From: Vulcanimicrobiota bacterium
Lineage (GTDB): Bacteria; Vulcanimicrobiota; Xenobia; Xenobiales; JADMJV01
Assembly (NCBI GenBank): GCA_050250895.1
Contig: JBFWNU010000002.1
Coordinates: 224,001-288,000 of the forward strand
Direction of reading: 5' to 3'
DNA: 64,000 nt
Shown in pieces: positions 20,979 through 35,906 of this stretch. A program made the position numbers and the translations under genes. The notes under the pieces were generated by a model. The model ran no database searches, was not told where the DNA came from, and saw only the letters and a list, made by a program, of their open reading frames with translations. How positions within the stretch are numbered: position 1 is the first letter of the stretch; each line of letters begins with the position of its first letter.

Positions 20979-22202
20979 TCAGGGCGTTCTACCACGACGC
21001 CCGATGAGCCGATCGAAGGTGATAGCGAGGATTGTACCGCCGCGGTCGTCCTGCGCGTTTCTGGCTATCACGAATGCCGGCTCCACATAGTTGAACGCTA
21101 GGCCATTGCGCCAGAGGACGGCGTCGGCAACCAGTCGCGCTAATCTTGCGTTTCCATCCGCGAAGGGGTGGAAGAAGCAGCAGTCGAGATACGCCATCGC
21201 TGCTCTCCAGATTGGGTGAAGCGCGGTGTCATTCGCTTCTGCCAGCTTTTGGTCAAACAGCGAAAGATTCGCTACGCCATAACGTTCCCGGCCATTCTTT
21301 GCAAAGGCGTCGGTTTCTCGCAAGTGGACTCCGTTCTTGTTTAAGACGAGCTTTTGCCACGCTGTGAGGACTTCAAACGTGAGGGGCTGGGTGGAATCAG
21401 CCCATTTGCGGCATGCCGTCAAAGCGGCCAGCATGTGTTCGTCCTTCTCAGTGCGTTTAATGTACATGACATGTCCATCTGAGCGAAGTGGATTGTGTTG
21501 TCGCCAAAAGTGGCTCCATTGCTCATTCGGAGGCTCGCGCACGTTGAGCCAAACTTCCAGGCTGTCCTCTTGGGTGATCATGGTGGCGCCCACCACCTCG
21601 CCCACCCGCCTGGAAGCTTCTTCTATTTGTGCTTTGGTTGGCTCGGTCCAGCTATGGAAGTGGCCCGAAAAGATTTTCTCGACCAGCGCTCTGGTGTGTC
21701 GGTCGCTGTGAGCGCTCGCCTCCAGGTACCAGTTGAGCGTCAGGGCGCAAGTCCTGTACCAGGCATCCGAGGTCTCGGTCCTCCGAATAATCATGGGCAC
21801 TAAGCGGGCGGCAACTGTCTCGATCTGGGCGGCCGCGTTTGACCCGGTCTTCATTGGTACTTCTGCTAGAATTCCGTCGAACTCCTCCAGAAATTCTCGC
21901 CACTGCTGTACAGCCGCGAGCACCGTTGTGACAATGTTTTCGCCTGGACCTTCCGGGTCAATTTCACTGACCACGGGGCCGCCGTCCTCGCTTGAGCGCC
22001 AACCGGCTATCCAGATTCCGAACTCTTGGATCAACAGCTGATCAAGACAGCCCTCGAGATAGTAGTCGTCGTTGTCTTGGTTGGAGTGCCAATCGTGAGT
22101 TGACAAGAAACCTTCGACTATAGCGCGGGCTCGGTCTCGATCAAAGTGTCGGCTCTCGGGTAACACGTCGTTCCACCGTAACCTATACGAACAGATGTCC
22201 AT
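20979..22202 (-). CDS. Fic family protein
   Basis: HPFADGNARLAR near the C-terminus; GC visibly lower than the flanks; start trimmed to MDICSY. Confidence 0.88.
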   Translation of the reverse strand: MDICSYRLRWNDVLPESRHFDRDRARAIVEGFLSTHDWHSNQDNDDYYLEGCLDQLLIQEFGIWIAGWRSSEDGGPVVSEIDPEGPGENIVTTVLAAVQQWREFLEEFDGILAEVPMKTGSNAAAQIETVAARLVPMIIRRTETSDAWYRTCALTLNWYLEASAHSDRHTRALVEKIFSGHFHSWTEPTKAQIEEASRRVGEVVGATMITQEDSLEVWLNVREPPNEQWSHFWRQHNPLRSDGHVMYIKRTEKDEHMLAALTACRKWADSTQPLTFEVLTAWQKLVLNKNGVHLRETDAFAKNGRERYGVANLSLFDQKLAEANDTALHPIWRAAMAYLDCCFFHPFADGNARLARLVADAVLWRNGLAFNYVEPAFVIARNAQDDRGGTILAITFDRLIGRRGRTP

Positions 22203-22323
22203 TGTGGTGCGCTTTCTCACCAGCAGAGAGTTAAGCCTTCGTGAACTCACGTTCCACCAGTTCACCAGTACCCCGATCCGGGCCTGAGACAGGACTGTGC
22301 CCGATGGATACCAATCCAACCAG

Positions 22324-22361
22324 GCTTGTTCAGACGGCGGAATTCCGCCGTCTGAACAAGC
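22324..22361. repeat. Perfect 38-bp palindrome
   Basis: gcttgttcagacggcggaa|ttccgccgtctgaacaagc. Confidence 0.9.
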
Positions 22362-22506
22362 TCTCTTCTGGGGGTCTTCGGCCGGAGGCCGCAGCCGGGG
22401 CGCGCAGACGACCTTAAGGGCCTTGAAAGAGGCGTTGGCGGGGCGCCCCATTCACGTGATCAGAGGGGTTAGTGGGGGTGAAAGAGGTCGATGGCCGCGA
22501 TCTCCG

Positions 22507-23139
22507 TCAAAAAGGTCCACTGTATTCGGACTCAACTCGAGGAAGAGGGTAGGGTGGCGTGGTCTCTCGCACCTCTTCGATGAGTTCCCCGTCGGGGGGC
22601 GGAAAAACGTCCTCCAGCCTCAGACACAGGTCAGGGAAGGCCGGGCTTCGGAGGGTCTCCGCCTCGGTGTAGGTGCCGGCGATGCGATAGCTGTCACCAT
22701 CCAAAGACAGCACCTCGGCCAGGGCCGGATAGGGCCGCAGGATCCAGTATTCTTTCACGCCCGCCGTGGCGTAGAGCCTGAGCTTCCGGACCCGGTCGTG
22801 GCGCTCGGTGCTAGGCGAGAGGATCTCGACGGCCAGGGTGGGCGCCCCTTCGATATGGGTCGGCGTGATCTGAGCCCTGTCGCAAACCACAATCAGGTCA
22901 GGCTGGACCGCGTCATACTCCGAGAGACGAACGTCGATTGGGGACACGAAGACCCGGCAGGGACGGCCTTTGAAATGCGCGTGAAGCAGTGCGAGTAGCT
23001 CTGTGAGAACGGCCTGATGGGCGACTCGCGGCGCCGTCATCGCATAGGGCCGGCCGTCGATGATCTCCCAGCGAGACTCGTCGTCCCAGGTGCGGTACTC
23101 GGCCCAACTGACCTTGCGTCCGCTTCGCGATGACTCCAT
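22507..23139 (-). CDS. Uma2 family endonuclease-fold protein
   Basis: RWEIIDG, VQPDLIVVC, GAPTLAVEILSPST, GVKEYWI; TATAAT 6 nt before the ATG. Confidence 0.92.
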   Translation of the reverse strand: MESSRSGRKVSWAEYRTWDDESRWEIIDGRPYAMTAPRVAHQAVLTELLALLHAHFKGRPCRVFVSPIDVRLSEYDAVQPDLIVVCDRAQITPTHIEGAPTLAVEILSPSTERHDRVRKLRLYATAGVKEYWILRPYPALAEVLSLDGDSYRIAGTYTEAETLRSPAFPDLCLRLEDVFPPPDGELIEEVRETTPPYPLPRVESEYSGPF

Positions 23140-23237
23140 CGTTGGATTATAGCCGATTTTCTCTGAGCGGTGTATCGGGCGGTGGCGGGGCAAACGGCTC
23201 CAAAGGACACCGGCCCGAGCGAACGAAACCCTCCACT

Positions 23238-23570
23238 ATGCCTGATCACCGCGACTGGGAGTTGGCCAAAGAGTTTCGGCGCCGCCTCGAGCCCCTGCTC
23301 GGAGAGCGCCTGCTCGAGGTCAGGATGTTTGGCTCGCGAGTGCGGGGCGACCACCGGCCCGACTCTGACCTCGACTTGTTCGTCAAGGTCGATACCGCCC
23401 CGGTCAAGACGCGATGGGCCATCTACGACGTGGCTACGGACATCAACGCAGAAACCGGCTTTGCCATTCCGCTGGCGCCGTTGGTGATGGCCGAGGCCGA
23501 GTTCGAGCATCTTCGCAATCGGGAACGGCGACTGGCTCGCGACATCCTCGAGGAGGGCGTGGTCGTTTGA
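23238..23570 (+). CDS. Minimal nucleotidyltransferase (MNT) antitoxin
   Basis: FGSRVRGDHRPDSDLDL motif. Confidence 0.9.
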   Translation: MPDHRDWELAKEFRRRLEPLLGERLLEVRMFGSRVRGDHRPDSDLDLFVKVDTAPVKTRWAIYDVATDINAETGFAIPLAPLVMAEAEFEHLRNRERRLARDILEEGVVV

Positions 23571-23977
23571 CCGACGAGAACCGGCGCCGCAACGCGCGCG
23601 ATGAGTGGGCCCTGGCCGAGTCCTCCTGGGCCGCCGCCGAGTTGTTGGGTCAGAATGGCTTCCATCGGGACGCCGTGGCCCGCTACTACTATGCCGCCTT
23701 GCATGCTGCTCGGGCAGCTTTGTTGACTCACGGAGAGGAGCCCCGCACCCACCTGGGCGTGTCCTCGCGATTCAACGAGCTCTTCGTTCGGGGCGACCTG
23801 ATGCCAACCAGCAGTTCGCGGGTGCTGGGCCGGTTGCAGCGCGAGCGGGAACAGGCCGACTACCATCGCGATGTCATCTTTCGCGAGGCGGACGTCGAGG
23901 AGGCGCGGCAGAGCGTCGAAGCGTTCCTGGAGGCTTTGCGGGGCCTGTTGACCCAGGGCGGGTGGCTCGAGTCGTAG
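23567..23977 (+). CDS. HEPN domain protein (MNT-HEPN pair)
   Basis: RYYYAALHAARAALL, THLGV, REQADY; TTG start overlaps the MNT stop. Confidence 0.88.
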   Translation: MTDENRRRNARDEWALAESSWAAAELLGQNGFHRDAVARYYYAALHAARAALLTHGEEPRTHLGVSSRFNELFVRGDLMPTSSSRVLGRLQREREQADYHRDVIFREADVEEARQSVEAFLEALRGLLTQGGWLES

Positions 23978-24122
23978 CCAAAGAGAAAGCCACCTTCACG
24001 AGCGGGGGGGTGACTTGTCGTGAAGGTGGCTATCAGCCATTCGGCTGATTCGCTCTATATCCCTGTCAGAAGCCATTATTAAGTTTCTAGGTTTTCTTTG
24101 GTGTGGTTTACATTGCTCAATG

Positions 24123-26368: not shown

Positions 26369-26725
26369 ATGAAGTATCTCGCTACCTTCTTGCTGACCCT
26401 CAGCCTGACCATGCCCCTCTGGGCCGATGGCAAAGCCCCTGCTGACGACGCCTCGCTGGCCGTCGGGGCCAAACTGTTCAAGCGCACTTGCGCTCCCTGT
26501 CATGGCAAGGAAGGAAAAGGCGACGGCCCCGCCGCCGCTGGGATCAAGCCACCGCCTCGCGATCTCACCACCGCCCCGCTGCTCCAGGGCGACAGCGACC
26601 AGGACATCTTCAACACCATCAGCAACGGCGTGCCGAAATCGGGCATGGCCGGATTTGCCAAGCAGCTCAAAGAGGAAGACCGCTGGAAAATCGTCTCTTT
26701 CGTCAAGAGTCTACGCAAGAAATAG
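26369..26725 (+). CDS. Periplasmic class I cytochrome c
   Basis: Signal peptide, CAPCH heme motif, distal Met in SGMAGF. Confidence 0.92.
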   Translation: MKYLATFLLTLSLTMPLWADGKAPADDASLAVGAKLFKRTCAPCHGKEGKGDGPAAAGIKPPPRDLTTAPLLQGDSDQDIFNTISNGVPKSGMAGFAKQLKEEDRWKIVSFVKSLRKK

Positions 26726-26746
26726 CCGAGAAGGTGCCGGTGCACC

Positions 26747-28273
26747 GTGCACGAACCACCTCCGATGGTGCGATGGCTATTGGTGGGTCTAGTTTCGGCA
26801 CTGCTGCTCTCCGGCGCTGCCCAGGCCCAGAGCAGACTTCCCGAGGGCTCGCCGGTGCGCACACTGTGCATCGCCTGCCACACTCCCGACGAGACCGGTC
26901 GCATTCCGACCATCGAGTCGATCCGAACTACCCCTGAGGGGTGGCGACGCATTGTCGACCGGATGAACCGCAACTACAAACTCGACCTCGACGAAGAGTA
27001 CGCGGCCGAGATCGTGGCCGACCTGGCCAACTCGCTCGCCCTGTCGCCGGCCGAGATGGCCGACCTGGAGGGCTATCTGCGCACCCGCGCCCTGCCCACC
27101 GACGACCCGGCCCTGCCCGAGACCTTCGCCCGCAGTTGCGCGTCTTGTCACGGCTACGAGGTCATCGCCAGCCAGCGCCGGACAGAGGCCGCCTGGATGC
27201 GGCTCGAGGGCTTTCACCGAGGCTATTTTCCGATCATTCCGATGATCTACCGCGACCTGGATTGGCCCACCGCGGCTCAGGCTGCTCTCACCGCCCTGAC
27301 GGCGCGCTTTCCCTTCGAGACCGACTGGACGCCGGGCGAGCCGGTGACGGGCGAGTTCCTGGTGGCCGGGCATCAAGCCGGTAAGGGCCAGTATACCGGC
27401 CGCCGCACGGTGGCCGAAGACGGCTCGACCTACACCGAGACGCTCACCTTTGAAGACGGAACCACCGTCGAAGGCAGCGGCCAGGGTCAGGTCACGGCCG
27501 GCTATCACTGGCGCTTCGAGGGGGCGACCCGCAGCCTGGTCGGCTCGGCCACCCCCGAGGGCTGGTTCGACTTTCGTTGGCAGGGCCCCCTGGGGGCCAC
27601 CGGCAGCGAGCGGGCCGTGGCCGCCAATCAACCGGGGCTTTTGGCGGTGAGCCCCGAGGCTATCGTCACCGAGGGCGGCGAAGTCACCGTCACGCTTTAT
27701 CGCAGCGGGTCGGGCAAAGAGGTCAAGTCGAGCTTGCCGGTGGCCGGGGTAGAAGAGTCCGGCCCGGCGCTGAAGGTAAAGCTGAAGGTGCCGCGTCTGA
27801 CCCGACCACAAGAGGTCAAGCTGAGCCTCGCCGACACGCCGGGCGAGGTTACCCTCAAGCTAGCTCCGCGCGTCGACGGCATTCGTATTAGCCCCGAGGA
27901 CCCGGCCGCCCGCATCGGCGGGGGCAAGATTCCCCTGGTGCCCTTGCAGTTCGAGGCCCGCGCGCTGAGCTTCGGAGCCGACGGCAAACCCAACACCGAC
28001 GACGACATCAGCCTCGGCCTGGTCCAGCCAACCTGGTCGCTGGAGGATTATGCCGGCACCGACATGGCTGACGACCCCTCCTACATCGGCACACTCGACG
28101 CCAGCGGCCTGTTTGCTCCCGCCACCCTGGCCCCCAACCCCGAGCGAGTGCGCCGCAACAACACGGGCGATGCCTGGGTGGTAGCTCGCTATCGCCCCAC
28201 CGGTGCGCTCAAGACCTATCGGGCTCGAGTGCTGCTCAAGGTGGTCGTGCCCGAATATCGAGGTAACGTCTGA
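26747..28273 (+). CDS. qhpA: Quinohemoprotein amine dehydrogenase alpha subunit
   Basis: Signal peptide, two CxxCH (CIACH, CASCH), RTTPEGW..RM, QRRTEAAW, ARIGG, GLFAPA..PNPER..NNTGD. Start may be 26765. Confidence 0.92.
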   Translation: MHEPPPMVRWLLVGLVSALLLSGAAQAQSRLPEGSPVRTLCIACHTPDETGRIPTIESIRTTPEGWRRIVDRMNRNYKLDLDEEYAAEIVADLANSLALSPAEMADLEGYLRTRALPTDDPALPETFARSCASCHGYEVIASQRRTEAAWMRLEGFHRGYFPIIPMIYRDLDWPTAAQAALTALTARFPFETDWTPGEPVTGEFLVAGHQAGKGQYTGRRTVAEDGSTYTETLTFEDGTTVEGSGQGQVTAGYHWRFEGATRSLVGSATPEGWFDFRWQGPLGATGSERAVAANQPGLLAVSPEAIVTEGGEVTVTLYRSGSGKEVKSSLPVAGVEESGPALKVKLKVPRLTRPQEVKLSLADTPGEVTLKLAPRVDGIRISPEDPAARIGGGKIPLVPLQFEARALSFGADGKPNTDDDISLGLVQPTWSLEDYAGTDMADDPSYIGTLDASGLFAPATLAPNPERVRRNNTGDAWVVARYRPTGALKTYRARVLLKVVVPEYRGNV

Positions 28274-29631
28274 TGCAAGCGATCCCGGTCCACTTTATCG
28301 ATCCCTCCCACATCTTCCATCCCGAGCACGGGGGCGTGTTCGAACTCTCCCCCGAGGCTCTCGAGCTTTACCAGAAGGCCATCGACGGCGAGGTGGCCGA
28401 GGGGCCGGCGATGCAAGAACTGCTGGCGGCCGACCTGCTCAGGGCGGGCGAGGCTCCGGCTTTTCCGCCCCCACCCAAAGACCTGACTCTACGTTCGCTG
28501 GTGGTCAACCTGACCCAGAACTGCAACCTGGCCTGCGTCTATTGTTATGCCGACGTGTTGCCCACGGCCAAGAAAAAGCGCCAGATGGAGCCCGAGACGG
28601 CTCGGGCGGCTATCGACTTTCTCCTTCGCCAGTCGGGCTCGGTGCGCACTCTCAACCTGACCTTCTTCGGCGGCGAGCCGCTGCTGAACTTTCCTCTGCT
28701 CAAGCAGTCGGTGCTCTACGCCGAGGACGAGGCTCGCAAGGCGGGCAAGAAGCTCCGCTACTCCCTGACCACCAACGCCACCCTGGTTACCGAGGAGATG
28801 GCCAGGTTTCTCGATGAGTACCGCATCGGCGTCTCCATCAGCCTCGACGGGCCGCCCGAGGTACAAGACGGCCAGAGGCCCTTCGTCAACGGTCGGGGCT
28901 CGTCCAATCGGGTGCTCAAAGGGGTCGAGACCTTGCTCACCCACGTGCGCTCGCGGCCGGTGGGGGCCAGGGTGACCCTGACGCGTCAGAGTGGCTCGGT
29001 GGTGCCGATCTTCGATTATCTGCACGAGCTGGGCTTTTTCGAGGTGGGGCTGGCGCCGGTCACCGACCCGCGGGCCGAACTGCACCTGGGCGACGAAGAG
29101 ATGGAGCGCCTGCTCGACGACTTTCGCATTTTGAGCGAGCGCACCGTGCAAGAAGCCCGGGCCGGACGCTACCTCGGCTTTTCGAATCTCACCAATATGC
29201 TCAGCAGCATTCACGCCGGCCGCAAACGCGTCTATCCGTGCGGGGCCGGCCTGGGTCTGTTCGGGGTCGATTACACCGGCAAAATTTCCCTGTGTCATCG
29301 TTTTCAAGGGAACGAGGACTTCGTGTTGGGCGATGTCTGGCAGGGCCTGGATGCCGAGGCGGTTCACCGCCTGCGCCGGGAAGTGCACCCGGTCAACAAG
29401 CTGGGCTGTCACACTTGCTGGATTCGCACCCTGTGCCGAGGCGGCTGTTATCACGAGGCGCTCGAGCGCCACGGCGACCATCGCAAGCCCAACCTGCATA
29501 CCTGCGATTGGCTGCGTGCCTGGGTGAAGCTGGTGCTGGAAGTTTATCTGACCCTGGCCCGCGAGGCCCCCGGTTTTCTCGACCGGCTCTCGGGCTCTCG
29601 AGCCAGAATGACGGAGGGTGTAGTGGTATGA
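28273..29631 (+). CDS. qhpD: Radical SAM/SPASM thioether-forming maturase
   Basis: CNLACVYC, FFGGEPLLN, SPASM PCGAG..LCHRF..CHTCWIRTLCRGGCYH; lies between qhpA and qhpC. Confidence 0.93.
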   Translation: MQAIPVHFIDPSHIFHPEHGGVFELSPEALELYQKAIDGEVAEGPAMQELLAADLLRAGEAPAFPPPPKDLTLRSLVVNLTQNCNLACVYCYADVLPTAKKKRQMEPETARAAIDFLLRQSGSVRTLNLTFFGGEPLLNFPLLKQSVLYAEDEARKAGKKLRYSLTTNATLVTEEMARFLDEYRIGVSISLDGPPEVQDGQRPFVNGRGSSNRVLKGVETLLTHVRSRPVGARVTLTRQSGSVVPIFDYLHELGFFEVGLAPVTDPRAELHLGDEEMERLLDDFRILSERTVQEARAGRYLGFSNLTNMLSSIHAGRKRVYPCGAGLGLFGVDYTGKISLCHRFQGNEDFVLGDVWQGLDAEAVHRLRREVHPVNKLGCHTCWIRTLCRGGCYHEALERHGDHRKPNLHTCDWLRAWVKLVLEVYLTLAREAPGFLDRLSGSRARMTEGVVV

Positions 29632-29906
29632 GCGAGCATGTGCGACGACTCAACGGAGGCGGCGAGGTGGAGGGGCAAACCCTCGAAGAGCTGGGCTGCA
29701 CCACGGTCTTCGAGCCCGGCTGGGAGACCGACGGCGACGGGGGGCAGCAGAGTCTGTGCCGACCGATGTATCGCGACCTCTACGGCTGCGCCGGCGACTG
29801 CTGGTGGCCGGCCCAGGTGCCCGACGAGATGTCGCAATACCCTTCCTGGGTCGAAGACTGTCAGGCCATCGAGCAGGACTGGAAGGACATCGACTTCATC
29901 AAATGA
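29628..29906 (+). CDS. qhpC: Quinohemoprotein amine dehydrogenase gamma subunit precursor (CTQ peptide)
   Basis: 92 aa: GCTTVFEPGWE..LCRPMYRDLYGCAGDCWWPAQVPD keeps the three Cys-Asp/Glu crosslink pairs and the CTQ Cys/Trp spacing; ATGA overlaps on both sides. Confidence 0.95.
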   Translation: MSEHVRRLNGGGEVEGQTLEELGCTTVFEPGWETDGDGGQQSLCRPMYRDLYGCAGDCWWPAQVPDEMSQYPSWVEDCQAIEQDWKDIDFIK

Positions 29907-30940
29907 GATGGCTACTGGTTTTGCTGGTCTTGCTGGCGCCGGCGTTTGGCGACGAGAGTCTGGTGGTGGTGGGCCGGGGAGGGGCGGCCATCGTCAACCC
30001 CGCCACCCTGGCCACCGAACTGGCCATTCCCACCCGCGGTGGGGCTCCGGCCTTTCTCTATTCCAACCTCGATCGCTCTCGCCTCTACTTGATCACCGGC
30101 GCCCGCGAACTCGTCGAGATCCTGGATGTCAAAAGCGGCAAGCTGACGCGCACCCTCACCCTCTCCCAGCCCAAAGAACTGCCTTATTTAAGGGCCTTTA
30201 TCTATGGGCTGTGCACCGACCCGCAAGAGAAGTTCCTCTATCTCTACATCCTGCCCAGCGTCCGAGAGCGCGAGTCGATTCGCGCCGAGGATTGCTACGT
30301 AGCCGTGGTCGATCTCGAAAGCGGCAAGAAGGTGGCCACCATTCCCGCCCCCGCCGGCATCAGCATGCTGGCCTTCAAGAACGACGGCAGCGAGATGTAT
30401 TTGCTGGGCCGCGACGTTTATGTGATGGACGCCAGGACGCGCAAGATCACGCTCAAAGAGTCGATACGCCATCCCGAGTATCAGGGCGAGGGCGAGACCG
30501 ACATCATCGCCGAGTGGGTCCACTATCGCGAATGCGACTCGGTGGCCTCACTGCCGATCTTCACCGAGGACCCTTCTACCAAGCGTTGGTTCATCGGCTT
30601 GTTGACCCTCGACCTCAAGACCGGCGAGCTCGATCGTTATGAAGCGGGTCCGCCCCCAGAATCGCTGGTCCCCTTTTCGGCCGTGATCACCCCCGACCGC
30701 CAGAAGGGTTACATCATCTTCAACCACCTGGTCGAGATGAGCCTGGCCGAGCGCAAGGTGACGCGCATGGTTCGCTTGCCCAAGTCGTATAGTATCTTGA
30801 CCGTCTCCGGCGACAGTTCGCGCCTGTTCTTCTGCGGCTCGGGTCGCAGCGTGGCTCGCTACGACATCGCCACCGGCGAGGTGGTCCAGCAGGTCGAGAT
30901 GCCCTGGGATACCACCGACATGATGGTGGTTCCACGCTAG
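29903..30940 (+). CDS. qhpB: Quinohemoprotein amine dehydrogenase beta subunit (beta-propeller)
   Basis: Signal peptide MRWLLVLLVLLAPAFG, propeller-like repeats, GLLTLDLKTGE; follows qhpC. Confidence 0.85.
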   Translation: MRWLLVLLVLLAPAFGDESLVVVGRGGAAIVNPATLATELAIPTRGGAPAFLYSNLDRSRLYLITGARELVEILDVKSGKLTRTLTLSQPKELPYLRAFIYGLCTDPQEKFLYLYILPSVRERESIRAEDCYVAVVDLESGKKVATIPAPAGISMLAFKNDGSEMYLLGRDVYVMDARTRKITLKESIRHPEYQGEGETDIIAEWVHYRECDSVASLPIFTEDPSTKRWFIGLLTLDLKTGELDRYEAGPPPESLVPFSAVITPDRQKGYIIFNHLVEMSLAERKVTRMVRLPKSYSILTVSGDSSRLFFCGSGRSVARYDIATGEVVQQVEMPWDTTDMMVVPR

Positions 30941-31776
30941 TGGAGCGGGCGATGGTGGCCAACCATCCGCGCCAACTCGAGTGGGACCGCTGGTGCCCGC
31001 CCGAGCTCGAAGGCCTGTTGCGCGAGGTGGTCGAGCCTCTGGCCGCCGGCCTGGAAGAACGCCTCGGTTCGCCCGCCTACAGTCGGGTTTATTTCGGCAA
31101 CGAGTCGTGCGAGATTCGTCTGCCCGAGCCGGCCGCTTTGTCTCGCATGCTAGAAGCGGCCCAGCAGCGAGGTCTCGCCCTCACCCTGTTGACGCCGCAA
31201 GTCAACGATGCCTGCCTGGAGAAGGTCGAGCAGTTGCTGGATCTTCTGCCCAGCGGGACTGAAGTGGTGTGCAATGATTGGGGCGTGCTTGGGCGGGTGC
31301 GCCAACGCCAGCTCAGGCCCGTGCTGGGCCGGTTGCTTTCGCGTTGCCTGCGCGACCCGCGCTCGCCCGAGCATCCGGCCTGGGAGGCCTCGCCTCTGGC
31401 CCACCCTCACTTTCGCGAAGCCCTGGCCGGCTGGGGAGTCGAGCGAGTGGAGGTGGACGTGCCCCTGGGACCGGCCGCCCCCCCCGCTCCGGAGTGGGGG
31501 CTCGAGGCCAGCCTGCGAGCGCCGTTCGTGCATGTGGCTTCGGGCCGCGTCTGTGCGGTGGGGTCGCTGTCGGCCCCGCCCGAAGAGAAGTTTCAGACGG
31601 CCGGAGCCTGCCAGCGCGAGTGCCTGACCTATCTGACGCGGCTGGATTCACCCACCCTCGAGTCGCAGCTTTTTCACCGCGGCAACGCCGCCTTTGCGGT
31701 GGCTGAGGCGACCACCCTGGTGGGTGCCCTTCACGGCTTCTCGCGCCTGGTCTTTGACCCGGAGCTGCTGTTTTGA
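30940..31776 (+). CDS. U32 family, UbiV-like Fe-S protein
   Basis: RVYFGNESC, LTLLTP, EVVCNDWG, SGRVC-x18-C-x3-C, RGN. Confidence 0.75.
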   Translation: MERAMVANHPRQLEWDRWCPPELEGLLREVVEPLAAGLEERLGSPAYSRVYFGNESCEIRLPEPAALSRMLEAAQQRGLALTLLTPQVNDACLEKVEQLLDLLPSGTEVVCNDWGVLGRVRQRQLRPVLGRLLSRCLRDPRSPEHPAWEASPLAHPHFREALAGWGVERVEVDVPLGPAAPPAPEWGLEASLRAPFVHVASGRVCAVGSLSAPPEEKFQTAGACQRECLTYLTRLDSPTLESQLFHRGNAAFAVAEATTLVGALHGFSRLVFDPELLF

Positions 31777-32774
31777 AGATTCTGGCGCCGGCCCGTTCGG
31801 CCATGGAAGTGGAGATGCTGGTCCATCACGGGGCCGAAGAGCTCTATTGCGGGCTGACCCCGCCCGAGTGGCACGAGCGCTTCGGTGGCCTCACCTGGCT
31901 CAATCGACGCTCGCCCCTGGGCGGCAACTTGCAGAGCTACGAAGAGCTGGGAGAGATGGTGCGACGAGCCAGGATTCCGGTCTTTCTCACCTTGAACGGT
32001 CAGGGCTTCACTCCCGAGCAGCTCGACTTTCAAATCGAGATAGCCCGTCGAGCCCAGCAGTTGGGAGTGGCCGCCTTCATCGTGGCCGACCTGGCACTGC
32101 TGCTGCGTCTGCGCCAGCAGCTGCCGGACATGCCGCTCCACCTGAGCAGTCTTGCCTCGTGCTTTAACCGGGCTTCCATCGACTTTTTCACCCATCTGGG
32201 AGTGGAGCGCGTGGTGCTGCCCCGCCAGGTCACCCTCGACGAGATCGAGGCCTTGCGCAAGGCGTGCCCGAAGGTCGAGATCGAGGTCTTCATCCTCAAC
32301 GACGGCTGCTTTTACGACGAGGGTGTGTGTGCCACCACCCATTCGCTCAAACCGTTCTGCATGACTCCCTGGCAAGAGACCTGGGAGCGCCGCGGGCAGC
32401 CCCTCGACGCTGCCGATGCGGCGCGCGTGGCCACCCATCAAAAGGAACTGCAGAAAGTGCTCTGGGCCAACAACAACTGCGGTTGCTCGCCTTCGCCCAA
32501 GGGTCTGCCCCAGGGGCCCTGCGGCCTGTGCGCCCTGCCGCGCCTGGCCGCCATGGGAGTCGACTCGCTCAAGATCGTCGGCCGCGAGGCGTCGGGCTTG
32601 CGCAAACTGGCCAGCCTGCAGCTGGTGCGGGCGGTGGTCGAGCGAGTGCGGGCCGGACAGTCGGAAGACGAGGTCCAGCAGTTCGCCGTCCAGGTGCGCG
32701 AGACGCCCGACCTGTGCGCCTCGGGCCGCATGTGCTACTACCGGGAAGTGCGATGGCGGCCCTCGCTCGTATAG
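31773..32774 (+). CDS. U32 family, UbiU-like Fe-S protein
   Basis: MKILAP, GAEELYCG, IVAD, LHLSS, RVVLPR, EVFILNDGCFYDEGVC (C-x6-C), SLKIVGR. Confidence 0.9.
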   Translation: MKILAPARSAMEVEMLVHHGAEELYCGLTPPEWHERFGGLTWLNRRSPLGGNLQSYEELGEMVRRARIPVFLTLNGQGFTPEQLDFQIEIARRAQQLGVAAFIVADLALLLRLRQQLPDMPLHLSSLASCFNRASIDFFTHLGVERVVLPRQVTLDEIEALRKACPKVEIEVFILNDGCFYDEGVCATTHSLKPFCMTPWQETWERRGQPLDAADAARVATHQKELQKVLWANNNCGCSPSPKGLPQGPCGLCALPRLAAMGVDSLKIVGREASGLRKLASLQLVRAVVERVRAGQSEDEVQQFAVQVRETPDLCASGRMCYYREVRWRPSLV

Positions 32775-34378
32775 TTCCTTTTCTCAGGGGCTTTCGCCTC
32801 AAGCTCGTTTTGATGTTCGGTCTGGCTCTGCTGGGAGTGGGCCTGAGCACCCTTTATCCCCTGGTGGGACGCTACCTGGTCGATCAGGTGCTGGTGCCAC
32901 GCAACGAAGCCGGCCTGGTGCCGGCCCTGGGCGCCCTGGTCGGTCTGGCCCTGATAGGCTGGCTCATCCGCGGCCTGGGGCGCACCCTCAACGCGTTGAC
33001 CACGGCCGAGATTCTGATCGCGATGCGGACCCACCTTTTCTCGCACCTGTTGCGCCTGCCTCAGAGCTTCTTTGTACGCGCCCGGACCGGGGACCTGGTG
33101 GCCCGCCTGCACCAGGACCTGACCGAGGCCCAGCGGGTCGCCACCGACGTGGTCCCCGGCCTGCTGGCCGCGGCCCTGTCGGCCCTGGCTTCGCTGGGCA
33201 TGCTGCTCTATCTCGATTGGCGGCTGACGCTGGCCACCCTCAGCGTGGCTCCTTTCATGTTGTTGACCGTGAGCGCCCTGCGCGCCCCGCTCCGTCGGGG
33301 AGCCATGAGCATCCGTGACGCCGCCGCCCAGACCCTGGCCTTCGCCGTCGAGAGCGTGGGGCGGGTGCGCATGACGGCGGCTTACGACTGCCAGGACGAA
33401 GAGGTCGAGCGCTATCGCCAGCACAATCTCGGCATTCTCGGGGCTCTGCGTTCCTACCAGTGGCTTTCGGTGGGGGCCGGCAGCCTGCCGCCCATCCTGG
33501 TCGGAGTGGCCGGAATGGTGGTGTTTTACTGGGGTGGCCGCCAGGTGCTCGCGGGCCAGATGACGGTCGGAGATCTGCTGGCCTACGCCGCCTATCAGGT
33601 GCGCTTCTTCGCTCCCGTGCAAGATTTGGCCCGAGGAGGCTTTCGTCTGGCCACCGGCCGGGCTGCCCTCGACCGCGTTTTCGAGGTGCTGGATCTGCCC
33701 CCGGCCGACCCTCCCGAACTCGAACCGCAGACGGTCTCGGGCCCTATCGAGTGGGATCAGGTCAGCTTTGCCTATCCCGGCCGCGGACCGCTACTCGAGC
33801 GCGTCAGCCTGCGTCTTGACCCCGGCGAGATCGTGGCCCTCACCGGCCCCAACGGGGTGGGCAAGACCACCCTGATCTGGCTGTTGCTCGGTTTCGAGAA
33901 GCCTGCCTCGGGAGCCATCCGCATCGGCGGCATCGCGCTCGACGAGATCCACCCCAGGGCGGTGCGCCGGGCCGTGACCCTGGTCCCCCAGGAAGCTTAT
34001 CTGCTCAATGCTAGCCTGGAAGACAATCTACGTTTCGCTGACCCCCAGGCCAGCCAGGCCGAACTCGACGAGGCGGCTGCCCTGGCCGGCATCGAGCTCC
34101 CCCTTTCCACCCTGGTAGGCGAGCGAGGCCTGGCCCTGTCTGACGGCCAGCGCCAGCGGGTGGCCCTGGCTCGCGGTTTGCTACGCAAGACTCCCGTGCT
34201 GATCCTCGACGAGGCCACTTCGGCCGTCGACGGCCCCTCTGAGGCCCGCCTCTTCCCCGCCCTGCGCGAACGCGGCCTGACCGTGCTGGTGCTGGCCCAC
34301 CGCGACTCCACCGTCGAGCAGGCCGACCGGGTGGTGCGCCTCGAGGCCGGTCGGGTGGTCGAAGCCGCCCCGTGCTAG
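32753..34378 (+). CDS. qhpF: ABC exporter, fused TMD + ATPase (QhpF-like)
   Basis: Six-TM region, Walker A GPNGVGKT, LSDGQRQR, LILDEATS; start trimmed to MAALARI. Confidence 0.85.
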   Translation: MAALARIVPFLRGFRLKLVLMFGLALLGVGLSTLYPLVGRYLVDQVLVPRNEAGLVPALGALVGLALIGWLIRGLGRTLNALTTAEILIAMRTHLFSHLLRLPQSFFVRARTGDLVARLHQDLTEAQRVATDVVPGLLAAALSALASLGMLLYLDWRLTLATLSVAPFMLLTVSALRAPLRRGAMSIRDAAAQTLAFAVESVGRVRMTAAYDCQDEEVERYRQHNLGILGALRSYQWLSVGAGSLPPILVGVAGMVVFYWGGRQVLAGQMTVGDLLAYAAYQVRFFAPVQDLARGGFRLATGRAALDRVFEVLDLPPADPPELEPQTVSGPIEWDQVSFAYPGRGPLLERVSLRLDPGEIVALTGPNGVGKTTLIWLLLGFEKPASGAIRIGGIALDEIHPRAVRRAVTLVPQEAYLLNASLEDNLRFADPQASQAELDEAAALAGIELPLSTLVGERGLALSDGQRQRVALARGLLRKTPVLILDEATSAVDGPSEARLFPALRERGLTVLVLAHRDSTVEQADRVVRLEAGRVVEAAPC

Positions 34379-35001
34379 CCGGATTCACCGGACGCGGGGT
34401 CCGCATCGCCCTGATCGATAGCGGAGTCAATCCTCACCACTCGCACCTCACCCGGGTGGCTCCGGGCCACTCCCTGGTTTCCGACGATACTCTCGACCAC
34501 ATCGGGCACGGCACGGCCATCGCGGGCGTGGTCCACTGGTGGGCCAGCCAGGCCGAGATCGTGCCGGTCAAGATCTTCGATCACCAGCTGCGCTGCCCCA
34601 CCGAGTTGGCCCAACAGGCCGTGGCCTGGGCCGTCGAGCAGGCTATTCCCCTGATCGGCCTGTCGCTGGCCGGGCGCGAAGAAGAGGGCTGGTCTAACTG
34701 CATACCCTCCAGTTCGCTGCTGGTCGCCTCGGCCGCCAATCGCTTTGCCGGAGGCTTTCCGGCTGTGTTGCCCGGCGTGCTGGGCGTGCAGGGCGTGCCG
34801 GCCCACACCTTCCGCAGCCTGGACGGACCCATCGACCTCGAGGCGCCCGGCCTGCCCCGCAGCCTGCCCGAGGATCGGCCCAACTTTCGCGGCAACAGCA
34901 TGGCCGTGGGCCATGCCCTGGGCCTCCTGGCCCGTCGCCTCGAGCAGCAGCCCGAGTCGACCCCAGCCCAATTGCTGGCCTGGCTGCGCCAGAGCGGTTA
35001 G
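34372..35001 (+). CDS. qhpE: Small S8 subtilisin-like leader peptidase (QhpE-like)
   Basis: Triad IALIDSGV / HGTAIAG / GNSMA; 209 aa, no signal peptide; last gene of the qhp operon. Confidence 0.85.
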   Translation: MLAGFTGRGVRIALIDSGVNPHHSHLTRVAPGHSLVSDDTLDHIGHGTAIAGVVHWWASQAEIVPVKIFDHQLRCPTELAQQAVAWAVEQAIPLIGLSLAGREEEGWSNCIPSSSLLVASAANRFAGGFPAVLPGVLGVQGVPAHTFRSLDGPIDLEAPGLPRSLPEDRPNFRGNSMAVGHALGLLARRLEQQPESTPAQLLAWLRQSG

Positions 35002-35906
35002 GAGCAGGGGCCCTCGCAGCAGTAGTAGTTGCCACTGCCGCCCATGATCGCGGCCTGACGAGCGTCGTCACAGCGGCGCTGGCAGATGTTGAAGCCGCCA
35101 AAGTTGCAGATGAAATTGGTGCCGTTCTCGACGCAGACCGGAAAGCCGTCGGGGTTGTCGTCGGTGCACGAATCAGCGGCCGAGCAAGGCGTGCCCGAGA
35201 TGCCCGGGCAACTGCGCTGGGTCATGCAAAAACAGGTGCAGCTTCCTCCGGTGCAAAGGTCCTGGCAAAAGCAGGCGGTGCTGTCGCAACAGGACACGCA
35301 GCCGTTGGGGGGAGTGGTGGCTGAGGGTACCCCCATGGCGTCGCACTGGGTGCATCCCTGGTCGTCGATACAGGCCGAAGCCGCCGCCACCGGCCCAGGG
35401 GCTGCCGCCAGGGAGATTACAGGCAACACGGCGGCCGCCCTGGCAAAACTCGCCAGGAATGTCCGGCGACTGGCCGAGCAGGCGAGCGGTGTGTCGACCG
35501 GAATGATCCGCTGCCGGCGAAACTCGCCCAGGGCCTGCCACAACAGCCCGAGGCCACCCATTTCGTCAGCCGCTTCGTGCACCAGGGTCTGGCCGTCGCA
35601 CAGTTCGTAGAGGCGCCGAGCCGGACCGTTGAGCAGCAGTAGCCCCGTGCGTAGGCGATGATAGAGCATCATCTCGTCTTGCACCGGTTGGCCCAGATAG
35701 TCGTGCGCTTGGGGCATCTCGGCAGGAGCGGTCAAGCCCTCGCGGTCGAACCGTTCGAGCGCCGCCTTGAGGGCCTCGTCGCTCATTCCCAGGCGTGAGG
35801 CTGCCACCGTGCGCGGTGTCCGGCCGTCGCAAAATTCGAGCAGAGGCAGATCTTCCGGTGGTAGATTAGTGTCGGCAATCTTGAATGGCATTATGACAGA
35901 GTTCAT
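34998..35906 (-). CDS. PqqD/RRE-like domain(s) fused to an RR-leader and a Cys-rich tail
   Basis: DEMMLYH..LLNGPARRLYELCDGQ (plus an earlier LEFCDGRT), SRRTFL..AVLPVISLAAAPGPVAAAS, then 22 Cys. Confidence 0.8.
   Translation of the reverse strand: MNSVIMPFKIADTNLPPEDLPLLEFCDGRTPRTVAASRLGMSDEALKAALERFDREGLTAPAEMPQAHDYLGQPVQDEMMLYHRLRTGLLLLNGPARRLYELCDGQTLVHEAADEMGGLGLLWQALGEFRRQRIIPVDTPLACSASRRTFLASFARAAAVLPVISLAAAPGPVAAASACIDDQGCTQCDAMGVPSATTPPNGCVSCCDSTACFCQDLCTGGSCTCFCMTQRSCPGISGTPCSAADSCTDDNPDGFPVCVENGTNFICNFGGFNICQRRCDDARQAAIMGGSGNYYCCEGPCS

What the first reader, a model, noticed from the sequence alone, without database searches (positions are those of the whole stretch)
26369..35001. 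QHNDH operon with a UbiU/UbiV-like U32 pair in place of QhpG: candidate O2-independent CTQ cofactor biosynthesis
Seen: cytochrome c, then qhpA, qhpD, qhpC, qhpB, U32-1, U32-2, ABC exporter and S8 protease. From qhpA onward every gene overlaps the next (TGATG, ATGA, ATGA, TAGTG, TTGA, 22 nt, 7 nt), so the U32 genes are embedded in the operon. No flavin monooxygenase gene is in the window. U32-1 has YFGNESC and C-x18-C-x3-C (UbiV-like ligand layout); U32-2 has the U32 signature with C-x6-C. Established: in Paracoccus, QhpD makes three thioethers, QhpE cuts the leader, QhpF exports, and the FAD monooxygenase QhpG hydroxylates the Trp using O2. U32 proteins UbiU/UbiV, RlhA and TrhP do O2-independent, Fe-S- and prephenate-linked hydroxylation. 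Inference: this pair hydroxylates the peptidyl-Trp of QhpC without O2, giving an anaerobic route to a protein-derived quinone cofactor and a peptide substrate for U32 enzymes. I cannot confirm from here that this is unpublished.
Basis: partly seen in the sequence, partly recalled or inferred. Interest (0 to 1): 0.93.

Follow-up and report, generated by a model that had tools for sequence, protein, structure and literature searches.

The report
U32 iron-sulfur pair inside amine-dehydrogenase operon
A quinohemoprotein amine dehydrogenase operon carries two U32-type iron-sulfur protein genes where the oxygen-using tryptophan hydroxylase QhpG normally acts, which probably marks an oxygen-independent way to build the enzyme's quinone cofactor.

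Summary
The window holds cytochrome c, then qhpA-D-C-B, two extra genes, qhpF and qhpE. The second extra gene is a clear Peptidase_U32 member and is UbiU-like. The first matches no Pfam or NCBIfam model. It has UbiV's 1+3 cysteine layout and a TIM-barrel model whose top structural hit is a U32 protein. It is predicted to form a heterodimer with the second gene's product (ipSAE 0.92, best control 0.00).

The 99.6%-complete genome has no QhpG ortholog. The same pair sits inside or beside qhp operons in several phyla.

- In 111 Rhodocyclaceae genomes, 14 have QhpD. Five have the pair only, four have QhpG only, five have both, and none has neither. None of the 97 QhpD-negative genomes has either.
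- In 401 Acidobacteriota genomes, all 6 with the pair are among the 39 with QhpD.

Best reading (about 0.6): the pair is an O2-independent peptidyl-Trp hydroxylase for the CTQ cofactor.

Caveats:
- No biochemistry exists.
- Co-occurrence with QhpG is common.
- Two qhp genomes have neither enzyme.
- Relatives of the pair occur without qhp.
- The host is capable of aerobic respiration.

I found no paper linking U32 proteins to QHNDH.

The parts
26369..26725 (+). Monoheme cytochrome c (CAPCH), 21 nt upstream of qhpA; a possible electron acceptor of the dehydrogenase
   Evidence: PF00034 2e-13 and PF13442 2.3e-13. It was not found beside the other qhp loci by tblastn.
26747..28273 (+). qhpA, the alpha (diheme) subunit of QHNDH
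   Evidence: TIGR03908 277 bits, over its cut-off of 274.35. Pfam Dehyd-heme_bind and Qn_am_d_aIV also match.
28273..29631 (+). qhpD, the radical SAM/SPASM thioether-forming maturase
   Evidence: TIGR03906 439.5 bits (cut-off 453). It is the best of 71 families matched. Its start overlaps the qhpA stop (TGATG).
29628..29906 (+). qhpC, the gamma subunit precursor that carries the CTQ Trp and the crosslink Cys residues
   Evidence: NF037958 114 bits (cut-off 50). The conserved GC, PGWE and C-x3-C-W-W-P-A-Q-V-x-D blocks are kept. The leader is shorter than in Paracoccus and Pseudomonas.
29903..30940 (+). qhpB, the beta (propeller) subunit
   Evidence: TIGR03907 135 bits, E 3e-39, below its cut-off of 223. 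Its position matches that in other qhp operons.
30940..31776 (+). U32-1: a 278-aa, four-Cys, TIM-barrel-like protein; the UbiV-like partner
   Evidence: No Pfam or NCBIfam match. C57, C205, C224 and C228 are invariant. The AF2 model has pLDDT 87.9, and its top VIA-align hit is U32 protein 5d88 at Z 12.5. A profile search finds 2252 representatives. A heterodimer with U32-2 is predicted.
31773..32774 (+). U32-2: a 333-aa Peptidase_U32 family protein, UbiU-like
   Evidence: PF01136 1.7e-36. The UbiU model NF047963 scores 97.7 bits, far under its cut-off of 440. It is 25% identical to E. coli UbiU over its full length, E 5e-21. Seven Cys are invariant.
32753..34378 (+). qhpF, an ABC exporter (fused permease and ATPase)
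   Evidence: ABC_membrane and ABC_tran match. It overlaps U32-2 by 22 nt. It is conserved after the pair in other loci.
34372..35001 (+). qhpE, the subtilisin-like leader protease
   Evidence: NF049966 101.5 bits (cut-off 165) and PF00082. It overlaps qhpF by 7 nt.

Best explanation
The two genes between qhpB and qhpF encode a heterodimeric iron-sulfur enzyme of the U32 kind. It consists of a UbiU-like catalytic subunit and a divergent UbiV-like four-Cys partner, and it is a dedicated maturation factor of quinohemoprotein amine dehydrogenase. I infer that it takes over the step QhpG performs with O2 in Paracoccus and Pseudomonas. That step adds two hydroxyl groups to the cofactor-precursor Trp of thioether-crosslinked QhpC in the cytoplasm, before QhpE removes the leader and QhpF exports the subunit. 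By analogy with UbiUV, the oxygen atoms would come from prephenate rather than O2, and the [4Fe-4S] clusters would carry away the electrons.

Shown here: the operon anatomy, the absence of a QhpG ortholog, the genome-level link between the pair and qhp, and the predicted heterodimer.

Inferred: the substrate, the reaction and the oxygen donor.
For: 1. Anatomy. The pair is translationally coupled inside the operon, with start and stop codons overlapping on both sides.

2. Recurrence. Of the 80 best U32-1 loci (from 433 in 185,579 species genomes), 20 carry QhpC and QhpD hits within 10 kb. The usual order is A-D-C-B-U1-U2-F-E. The hosts are Blastocatellia and other Acidobacteriota, Bacillota, a Planctomycetia MAG and Proteobacteria. 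Two U32-only Rhodocyclaceae loci (L135, L136) read A-D-C-B-F-E-U1-U2 on one strand, with no QhpG hit in the locus.

3. No QhpG in this genome.
- The best tblastn hit scores 51 bits.
- The best HMM hits score 80 and 123.5 bits. Both fall on a 781-aa halogenase-like fusion protein on contig C3.
- That protein matches halogenases better than QhpG structure 7ctq (77 against 37 bits).
- It has homologs covering its flavoprotein domain in 8 relatives, whereas 0 of 40 relatives have QhpD.

4. No QhpG in other genomes with a qhp-linked pair.
- The 12 genomes G001-G012 have no hit above 81 bits with the QhpG model A2. Controls score 511-706 bits.
- The same 12 plus 3 variant-operon genomes have no hit above 179 bits with the combined flavoprotein model A3. 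Two qhp-linked flavoproteins that were not in the model score 580-617 bits.

5. Rhodocyclaceae sample (111 genomes).
- QhpD is in 14 genomes. U32-1 is in 10 and QhpG in 9, and all of these lie within the 14.
- Five genomes have the pair only, four have QhpG only, five have both, and none has neither.
- None of the 97 QhpD-negative genomes has either.

6. Acidobacteriota sample (401 genomes). U32-1 is in 6 genomes, all among the 39 with QhpD. In 5 of the 6 it lies within 4 kb of QhpD.

7. Adjacency where both exist. In Sedimenticola locus L027 qhpG is followed directly by U1-U2. In L056 and L073 the pair abuts qhpG.

8. Enzyme class.
- U32-2 is a PF01136 member.
- Its C179, C186 and C196 align with UbiU C169, C176 and C193.
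- The U32-1 layout (C57, then C205-x18-C224-x3-C228) parallels the conserved UbiV Cys at 39, 180, 193 and 197.
- hhalign places YFGnEFC on UbiV's YLGEtVC (E 0.011).

9. Heterodimer. ipSAE was 0.92, 0.92 and 0.93 in three runs. The best of 3 controls was 0.00. Partner pLDDT was 90-91, and the runs agreed in at least 95% of contacts. The tool's calibration for this mark is 58 of 80 solved complexes and 2 of 110 mismatched pairs, and it holds only roughly here because my own alignments were used. The interface includes the Cys-bearing segments of both chains. No solved sequence relative of either chain was found, so a pass from memory of a solved complex is less likely.

10. The pair is not UbiUV itself. 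Sedimenticola genome G014 has a separate UbiV scoring 408 bits.

11. Literature.
- UbiUV, RlhA and TrhP are linked to O2-independent hydroxylation of aromatic rings, with prephenate as the O donor for UbiUV. Most of the twelve U32 subfamilies are uncharacterised (PMC10990095, passages read).
- QhpG uses O2 to dihydroxylate the Trp of crosslinked QhpC (PMC7876137, passages read).
- A 2019 J Bacteriol title says that QHNDHs initiate anaerobic amine degradation in Aromatoleum aromaticum. I saw it only as a reference entry.
Against: - No biochemical or genetic data exist for this pair. Direct hydroxylase activity had not been shown in vitro for the U32 proteins RlhA and TrhP, and in vitro activity assays were still awaited (PMC10990095).
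- The pair and the flavoprotein often co-occur. This is the case in 5 of 14 QhpD-positive Rhodocyclaceae. It is also the case in 4 Acidobacteriota genomes (G212, G456, G457, G458), where the pair is unlinked to a flavoprotein-type qhp operon. The pair could therefore add a different step rather than replace QhpG.
- Two Acidobacteriota genomes, G414 and G333, have qhpADCBFE with neither a U32-1 nor a flavoprotein hit. G333's qhp lies on an 8.76 Mb contig. A third route, or no dedicated enzyme, is therefore possible.
- Clade-mates of the qhp-linked U32-1 occur in genomes without QhpD at E <= 1e-40: Myxococcaceae G459 and Paremcibacter G463. In four Bacillota genomes the only QhpD-like hit scores 233-274 bits.
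- U32-1 fails every family model. Its structural match to U32 (Z 12.5) is tied with other TIM barrels (Z 11.9).
- The complementary pattern rests on few evolutionary events. Only 2-3 independent pairs exist on the QhpD tree.
- The host has four COX1 genes, so O2 is not obviously limiting for it.
- The conserved halogenase-like flavoprotein on C3 cannot be excluded as a stand-in.
Confidence: 0.6

Rival explanations
1. The pair is a dedicated QHNDH maturation factor but carries out a different step. Candidates are forming or oxidising the Cys-Trp link, the final oxidation to the quinone, or passing electrons to or from QhpD. The Trp hydroxylation would then be done by something else.
For: The pair co-occurs with QhpG or the acidobacterial flavoprotein in many genomes. 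Two qhp genomes have neither enzyme, so hydroxylation may not always need a cis-encoded enzyme. U32-2 has four extra invariant Cys (C250, C253, C315, C321) whose role is unknown.
Against: In the Rhodocyclaceae sample, 5 genomes have the pair only and 4 have QhpG only, and both sets have full qhp operons. An extra step would not be dispensable exactly where QhpG is present, and QhpG would not be dispensable exactly where the pair is present. The chemistry linked to characterised U32 proteins is ring hydroxylation.
Confidence: 0.17
2. A flavoprotein encoded elsewhere hydroxylates the Trp with O2, and the U32 pair is accessory or unrelated to that step. The candidate is the 781-aa halogenase-like protein at G000:C3:10922-13267.
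For: That protein scores 123.5 bits against the acidobacterial qhp-linked flavoprotein HMM. Genuine proteobacterial QhpGs score 78-166 bits against the same HMM. It carries FAD_binding_3 and Trp_halogenase domains.
Against: It lies among unrelated genes (Tex, PrmA, a phosphatase). Homologs covering its flavoprotein domain occur in 8 relatives, while none of 40 relatives has QhpD. It matches halogenases better than QhpG. Comparable 155-170-bit paralogs also sit in genomes that already have a qhp-linked flavoprotein.
Confidence: 0.08
3. The pair acts as a peptidase, the historical name of the U32 family. It would process or proofread QhpC or other subunits.
For: The Pfam family name. The operon handles a leader-bearing precursor.
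Against: QhpE, the known leader protease, is present. The conserved features are Fe-S-type Cys sets, not protease residues. Characterised U32 members are tied to hydroxylation.
Confidence: 0.04
4. The pair serves another pathway, such as quinone or RNA hydroxylation, and only travels with qhp as a passenger.
For: Relatives stand alone in many anaerobes and archaea with unrelated neighbours. In a Desulfosporosinus locus the pair is flanked by UbiE/COQ5-type methyltransferases.
Against: In two family- or phylum-wide samples the pair is found only in QhpD-positive genomes. That is 16 of 53 QhpD-positive genomes against 0 of 459 QhpD-negative ones. It is translationally coupled within the operon in distant phyla. 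A genuine UbiV coexists with it in G014.
Confidence: 0.05

Closest known systems
UbiU-UbiV (O2-independent ubiquinone ring hydroxylation, E. coli)
   Same: Two adjacent genes for U32-type proteins. A four-Cys set is present in each. The partner has the 1+3 Cys layout. A heterodimer is predicted. Both coexist with an O2-dependent flavin hydroxylase in facultative anaerobes.
   Different: Scores lie far below the UbiU cut-off (97.7 against 440), and U32-1 gives no UbiV hit at all. The gene order is V-like then U-like. The pair sits in a protein-cofactor operon, so the presumed substrate is a peptidyl Trp rather than a prenylphenol. It also occurs in Bacillota and Acidobacteriota. U32-2 has four further invariant Cys.
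QhpG (FAD peptidyl-tryptophan dihydroxylase, PDB 7CTQ)
   Same: It has the same operon context, and sometimes the same position after qhpE. It has the same genome-level restriction to QhpD-positive genomes. The presumed reaction is the same.
   Different: The fold and cofactor are unrelated: a flavin enzyme using O2, against Fe-S TIM-barrel proteins. There is no sequence similarity.
TrhP and RlhA (U32 proteins needed for tRNA ho5U and rRNA ho5C)
   Same: All contain a PF01136 domain and are linked to prephenate-dependent, O2-independent hydroxylation. The TrhP model scores 85 bits on U32-2.
   Different: They are single longer chains that act on RNA, and their scores here lie far below their cut-offs.
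Halogenase-like flavoprotein linked to qhp in Acidobacteriota
   Same: It occupies the QhpG-like slot, upstream of qhpA, in 15 of 20 fetched loci. In the 20 fetched loci it is never found together with a U32 pair.
   Different: It is a flavoprotein whose best solved match is CmlS, not 7ctq (122 against 62 bits). Its role is also only inferred.

Membership tests
QHNDH (qhp) operon | Structural genes qhpA, qhpB and qhpC | tested here: met
   QhpA and QhpC score over their NCBIfam cut-offs. QhpB is the best hit (3e-39) but falls under its cut-off.
QHNDH (qhp) operon | Maturation genes qhpD (radical SAM), qhpE (S8 protease) and qhpF (ABC exporter) | tested here: met
   TIGR03906 439.5 bits (cut-off 453). 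NF049966 101.5 bits (cut-off 165). ABC domains match. All three are the best hits and lie in canonical positions.
QHNDH (qhp) operon | qhpG flavoprotein monooxygenase | tested here: not met
   No ortholog in the 99.64%-complete genome. The best hits score 51 bits by tblastn and 80 and 123.5 bits by HMM, on a halogenase-like protein that is conserved in relatives lacking qhp.
Peptidase_U32 (PF01136) | Match to the family model: U32-2 | tested here: met
   126.1 bits against a cut-off of 22.4.
Peptidase_U32 (PF01136) | Match to the family model: U32-1 | tested here: not met
   None of 21 family members reaches significance. One member scores E 0.21.
Peptidase_U32 (PF01136) | U32 fold: U32-1 | tested here: inconclusive
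   5d88 is rank 1 by VIA-align (Z 12.5, rmsd 3.7, 188 residues aligned). It is rank 2 by Foldseek (E 9.4e-5, TM 0.45/0.49). Other TIM barrels follow within 1 Z unit.
UbiU (NF047963) and UbiV (NF047965) | Score over the equivalog cut-off | tested here: not met
   U32-2 scores 97.7 bits against 440. U32-1 has no hit.
UbiU/UbiV-like working mode | Four conserved Cys in each subunit, in the UbiU or UbiV layout | tested here: met
   For U32-1: C57, C205, C224 and C228 against UbiV C39, C180, C193 and C197. For U32-2: C179, C186 and C196 align with UbiU C169, C176 and C193. The fourth ligand is ambiguous (C250 or C253).
UbiU/UbiV-like working mode | Heterodimer of the two subunits | tested here: met
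   This is a prediction only. ipSAE is 0.92 and the best control is 0.00.
UbiU/UbiV-like working mode | Bound [4Fe-4S] clusters, prephenate dependence and hydroxylase activity | not testable with these tools
   This needs protein chemistry and isotope labelling.
UbiU/UbiV-like working mode | UbiT-type (SCP2) accessory protein | not tested
   The nine-gene operon has no further ORF assigned. I ran no search for SCP2.

The most novel reading that the evidence does not exclude
U32 iron-sulfur heterodimers can hydroxylate a protein-bound tryptophan using an organic oxygen donor. This would be the first O2-independent route to a protein-derived quinone cofactor (CTQ). It would explain how denitrifiers make active QHNDH without oxygen. 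The wider partner family, with about 2250 representative clusters and many members in strict anaerobes and archaea, would mark further O2-independent aromatic hydroxylases with unknown substrates.
Probability: 0.5. Interest if true: 0.9.

Novelty: new variant of a known kind. Interest (0 to 1): 0.8.

Why it matters
In the papers I read, CTQ biogenesis is described only with the O2-dependent flavoenzyme QhpG (PMC7876137; the 2025 review PMC11951088; passages read).

A U32 pair that does this step would:
- extend prephenate-type hydroxylation from lipids and RNA to a protein substrate;
- assign a function to an uncharacterised U32 subfamily and to a partner family with no Pfam model;
- give a directly testable answer to how QHNDH can be matured under anoxia.

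The sampled Rhodocyclaceae include genomes with the pair, with QhpG, or with both. If cultured strains match these states, they would offer ready genetic test beds.

Tried and rejected
- PDB sequence searches with the U32-1 profile and with U32-2 found nothing useful.
- Pfam and NCBIfam scans of all 21 U32-1 relatives at E <= 1 found nothing significant.
- The ESM Atlas gave only leads: no common Pfam family, and one cluster auto-named Peptidase U32.
- The plasmid collection was unusable for profiling. U32-1 had no match, and QhpG matched only 3 records at 1e-30.
- My first QhpG model (A2) at E <= 1e-40 made most acidobacterial qhp operons look QhpG-free. Fetching the loci showed a divergent halogenase-like flavoprotein next to qhpA. 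I rebuilt the model (A3) and repeated the genome searches.
- An order-level sample around Thauera was uninformative. Only the centre genome, 1 of 121, had QhpD.
- The independent-pairs test on the QhpD tree found only 2-3 pairs, so no statistic is possible.
- The neighbours of non-qhp pairs show no recurring substrate gene.
- No RNA holder was listed for the stretch, and read laying was not run.
- Schmitt et al. 2019 (PMC6657600) is not held. That paper, Nakai et al. 2014 (recalled, not seen) and the papers' supplements might already list these genes.
- Four searches for papers linking U32 or UbiU with QHNDH or CTQ found nothing. Searches returned 0 papers. None of the 12 listed of the 14 papers found deals with QHNDH, judging by title and the start of the abstract.

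Full report
**Observation.** The + strand from 26369 to 35001 carries nine genes. Family scans identify them as follows:
- a monoheme cytochrome c;
- QhpA (TIGR03908, 277 bits, over its cut-off);
- QhpD (TIGR03906, 439.5 bits, just under its cut-off of 453);
- QhpC (NF037958, 114 bits, over its cut-off);
- QhpB (TIGR03907, 135 bits, under its cut-off);
- an unassigned 278-aa protein (U32-1);
- a Peptidase_U32 protein (U32-2; PF01136, 126 bits);
- an ABC exporter (QhpF);
- QhpE (NF049966, 101.5 bits, under its cut-off).

QhpC keeps the conserved Cys and the C-x3-C-W-W-P-A-Q-V-x-D block shared with Paracoccus and Pseudomonas QhpC, and it has a shorter leader.

**What the two extra proteins are.**

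U32-2 is 25% identical to E. coli UbiU over its whole length (E 5e-21). It scores far below the UbiU and TrhP equivalog cut-offs (97.7 against 440, and 85 against 534). In 39 relatives, C179, C186, C196, C250, C253, C315 and C321 are invariant. The first three align with UbiU C169, C176 and C193.

U32-1 matches no Pfam or NCBIfam model, and neither do its 20 relatives.
- The family is real and sizeable. A word-indexed search found 20 proteins. A full profile search found 2252 representative clusters at E <= 1e-3, 851 of them at E <= 1e-30.
- Four Cys (57, 205, 224, 228) are invariant. Their 1+3 layout parallels the Cys conserved in 17 UbiV sequences (39, 180, 193, 197).
- Profile-profile alignment to UbiV is weak (E 0.011, probability 3.8%). 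It does put YFGnEFC on YLGEtVC and the E-V-V-x-N-D block on V-E-A-N-D.
- The AlphaFold model is confident (pLDDT 87.9, pTM 0.88). Its best structural match is the U32 protein Mk0906 (5d88). That match is rank 1 by VIA-align (Z 12.5, rmsd 3.7, 188 residues) but tied with other TIM barrels at Z 11.9. It is rank 2 by Foldseek.

The two proteins are predicted to form a heterodimer. ipSAE was 0.92, 0.92 and 0.93, and the best of three controls was 0.00. Partner pLDDT was 90-91, and the runs agreed in at least 95% of contacts. The tool's calibration for this mark is 58 of 80 solved complexes and 2 of 110 mismatched pairs, and it holds only roughly with my own alignments. The interface covers the Cys-bearing segments of both chains. 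No solved sequence relative of either chain exists in the PDB copy.

**Is QhpG really missing?** I took QhpG from annotated Paracoccus pantotrophus and Pseudomonas nitroreducens plasmid operons. I confirmed both against the solved QhpG structure 7ctq (2.1e-43 and 1.8e-153).

In the window's genome (9.5 Mb, 17 contigs, 99.64% complete), tblastn gives at best 51 bits. A five-sequence QhpG HMM gives at best 80 bits.

While sampling Acidobacteriota I found that their qhp operons carry a different flavoprotein just upstream of qhpA. It is halogenase-like, and its best solved match is CmlS at 122 bits, against 62 bits for 7ctq. I therefore repeated the search with an HMM of that type. The best own-genome hit is 123.5 bits, on the same ORF as before, C3:10922-13267.

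That ORF is unlikely to be a qhp factor, for four reasons:
- It is a 781-aa fusion of a halogenase-like flavoprotein with a CxxCxxCC domain, and it sits among Tex, PrmA and a phosphatase.
- It matches halogenases better than 7ctq (77 against 37 bits).
- It has homologs covering the flavoprotein domain in 8 relatives.
- None of 40 relatives has QhpD.

I conclude that it is lineage-conserved and not qhp-dedicated, although it cannot be strictly excluded as a stand-in.

The whole operon is therefore an island in this lineage. Its upstream flank holds Fic, Uma2 and HEPN genes.

**Distribution of the pair.** A scan of 185,579 species genomes with the U32-1 alignment found 433 stretches that encode a relative, and the best 80 were kept.
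- 64 of the 80 have a U32-2-like gene in the locus.
- 20 of the 80 have QhpC and QhpD hits within 10 kb. The usual order is A-D-C-B-U1-U2-F-E.
- Three loci (Sedimenticola L027, Litorilituus L056, Colwellia L073) also carry qhpG, directly adjoining the pair. In Thauera (L079) qhpG lies a few kb further out.
- A tree of 84 U32-1 domains has two well-supported halves. One half (34 rows: archaea, Dehalococcoidia, Thermodesulfobacteriota) has no qhp linkage. The other (50 rows) holds the 20 loci with QhpC and QhpD hits, the window, and three partial loci (a short Blastocatellia contig and two loci with only qhpF and qhpE). It also holds 26 'standalone' pairs.
- Three acidobacterial standalone pairs turned out to sit in genomes that have a flavoprotein-type qhp operon elsewhere. 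One Rhodocyclaceae pair lies 12 kb from qhp.
- A Myxococcaceae genome and a Paremcibacter genome have no QhpD at E <= 1e-40. Four Bacillota genomes have only a sub-threshold QhpD-like hit of 233-274 bits.

**QhpG in genomes with a qhp-linked pair.** The QhpG model A2 found nothing above 81 bits in the 12 genomes G001-G012. Controls scored 511-706 bits. The combined flavoprotein model A3 found nothing above 179 bits in those 12 genomes plus three variant-operon genomes.

Two qhp-linked flavoproteins that were not in the model scored 580 and 617 bits. Paralogs at 155-170 bits also occur in genomes that already have the linked flavoprotein. The 158-179-bit hits are therefore background.

**Two unbiased samples.**

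Acidobacteriota (401 genomes):
- QhpD-like hits occur in 39 genomes, 29 of them over the cut-off.
- U32-1 occurs in 6 genomes, all among the 39. In 5 of the 6 it lies within 4 kb of QhpD.
- Of 20 fetched qhp loci, 15 have the linked flavoprotein and no pair, and 2 have the pair and no flavoprotein. Two have neither, and one ends at a contig edge.
- The two with neither are G414 and G333, and no hit was found elsewhere in those genomes either.

Rhodocyclaceae (111 genomes):
- QhpD occurs in 14 genomes. U32-1 occurs in 10 and QhpG in 9, and all of these lie within the 14.
- Five genomes have both, five have the pair only, four have QhpG only, and none has neither.
- None of the 97 QhpD-negative genomes has either.
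- Two pair-only loci (L135, L136) read A-D-C-B-F-E-U1-U2 with no QhpG hit. A locus with both reads A-D-C-B-F-E-G, with the pair 13 kb away.

Relatedness limits the statistics. On a QhpD tree the four states need 7 changes, and only 2-3 independent contrasts exist.

**Reading.** The pair is tied to QHNDH at the level of operons and genomes. Within one bacterial family it shows an 'at least one of the two' relationship with QhpG. This is the pattern expected for two enzymes that do the same step by different chemistry, as with UbiUV beside the O2-dependent Ubi hydroxylases.

Characterised U32 proteins are linked to O2-independent hydroxylation of aromatic rings, with prephenate as the oxygen donor for UbiUV. 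Most of the twelve U32 subfamilies are unassigned (PMC10990095, passages read). QhpG's reaction is an O2-dependent dihydroxylation of the Trp in crosslinked QhpC (PMC7876137, passages read).

The pair is not UbiUV itself. A genome with the qhp-linked pair also has a separate UbiV scoring 408 bits.

[quoted passage not shown] If QHNDH is active in anoxic cultures, an O2-independent CTQ route must exist. Aromatoleum belongs, by my recollection, to the same family as the sampled genomes.

**Limits.**
- The substrate, reaction and oxygen donor are inferred.
- Co-occurrence with the flavoprotein is common.
- Two genomes have neither enzyme.
- Clade-mates of the pair exist without qhp.
- The U32 membership of U32-1 is not met at the sequence level.
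- The host has four COX1 genes, so the chemistry, not the lifestyle, is what may be O2-independent.

**Novelty.** Four searches for papers linking U32 or UbiU to QHNDH or CTQ found nothing. Three returned no paper: 'quinohemoprotein amine dehydrogenase' with U32, tryptophylquinone with UbiU, and QhpD with U32. The fourth, U32 with prephenate and hydroxylation, returned 14 papers. None of the 12 listed concerns QHNDH, judging by title and abstract start. A 2025 review names only QhpG for CTQ in QHNDH (passages read). Subscription papers and supplements could not be checked.

Noticed in passing
window 34998-35906 (- strand): A 302-aa ORF converges on qhpE and shares 4 nt with its end. Its C-terminal half is very Cys-rich. 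It has no Pfam or NCBIfam match.
   Followed up: partly
L095-L098, L100-L102, L104, L106-L109, L112-L115 (Acidobacteriota qhp loci): The flavoprotein linked to qhp in Acidobacteriota is a halogenase-like lineage. Its best solved match is CmlS at 122 bits, against 62 bits for QhpG 7ctq. It usually lies just upstream of qhpA.
   Followed up: partly
L093 (G414) and L094 (G333): These loci hold complete qhpADCBFE operons, yet their genomes have neither a U32 pair nor a flavoprotein hit. In L093 a 338-aa ORF with no Pfam match overlaps the end of qhpE, followed by an aldehyde dehydrogenase. Different large genes precede qhpA: an OMP beta-barrel protein in one and an ankyrin/LRR protein in the other.
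   Followed up: partly
L018, L021, L088, L034 (also L110, L111): Variant operons hold QhpD, only a weak QhpC-like hit (41-46 bits) and QhpB-like propeller ORFs, then U1-U2-F-E. They have no QhpA hit and no flavoprotein. They may encode a divergent QHNDH-like enzyme.
   Followed up: partly
L028, L033, L051, L059, L061, L072, L077, L090: In archaea, Dehalococcoidia and some deltaproteobacterial MAGs, the order is U2 then U1. The pair sits beside FAD_binding_4, CCG/Fer4_8 and ETF genes.
   Followed up: partly
L011, L022, L037, L047, L062 and similar Thermodesulfobacteriota loci: U32-1-like genes occur without an adjacent U32-2 hit. They lie downstream of a DAHP synthase gene and a TPR lipoprotein gene, and upstream of HlyD/AcrB and Ham1 genes.
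   Followed up: no
L071 (Desulfosporosinus): A standalone pair is flanked by two UbiE/COQ5-type methyltransferase genes. This hints at a small-molecule hydroxylation and methylation route.
   Followed up: no
G000:C3:10922-13267 (- strand; L091:4920-7265): A 781-aa fusion of a flavin halogenase-like domain with a CxxCxxCC domain. The C-terminal part has many paralogs in this genome and in its relatives.
   Followed up: partly
window 20979-24000 and relatives: Fic, Uma2 and HEPN genes lie upstream of the operon. None of 40 relatives has QhpD. The qhp cluster therefore looks horizontally acquired.
   Followed up: partly
G000:C6:291036-293243: This is the only other PF01136 locus in the genome, a 916-aa ORF with two U32 matches.
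   Followed up: no
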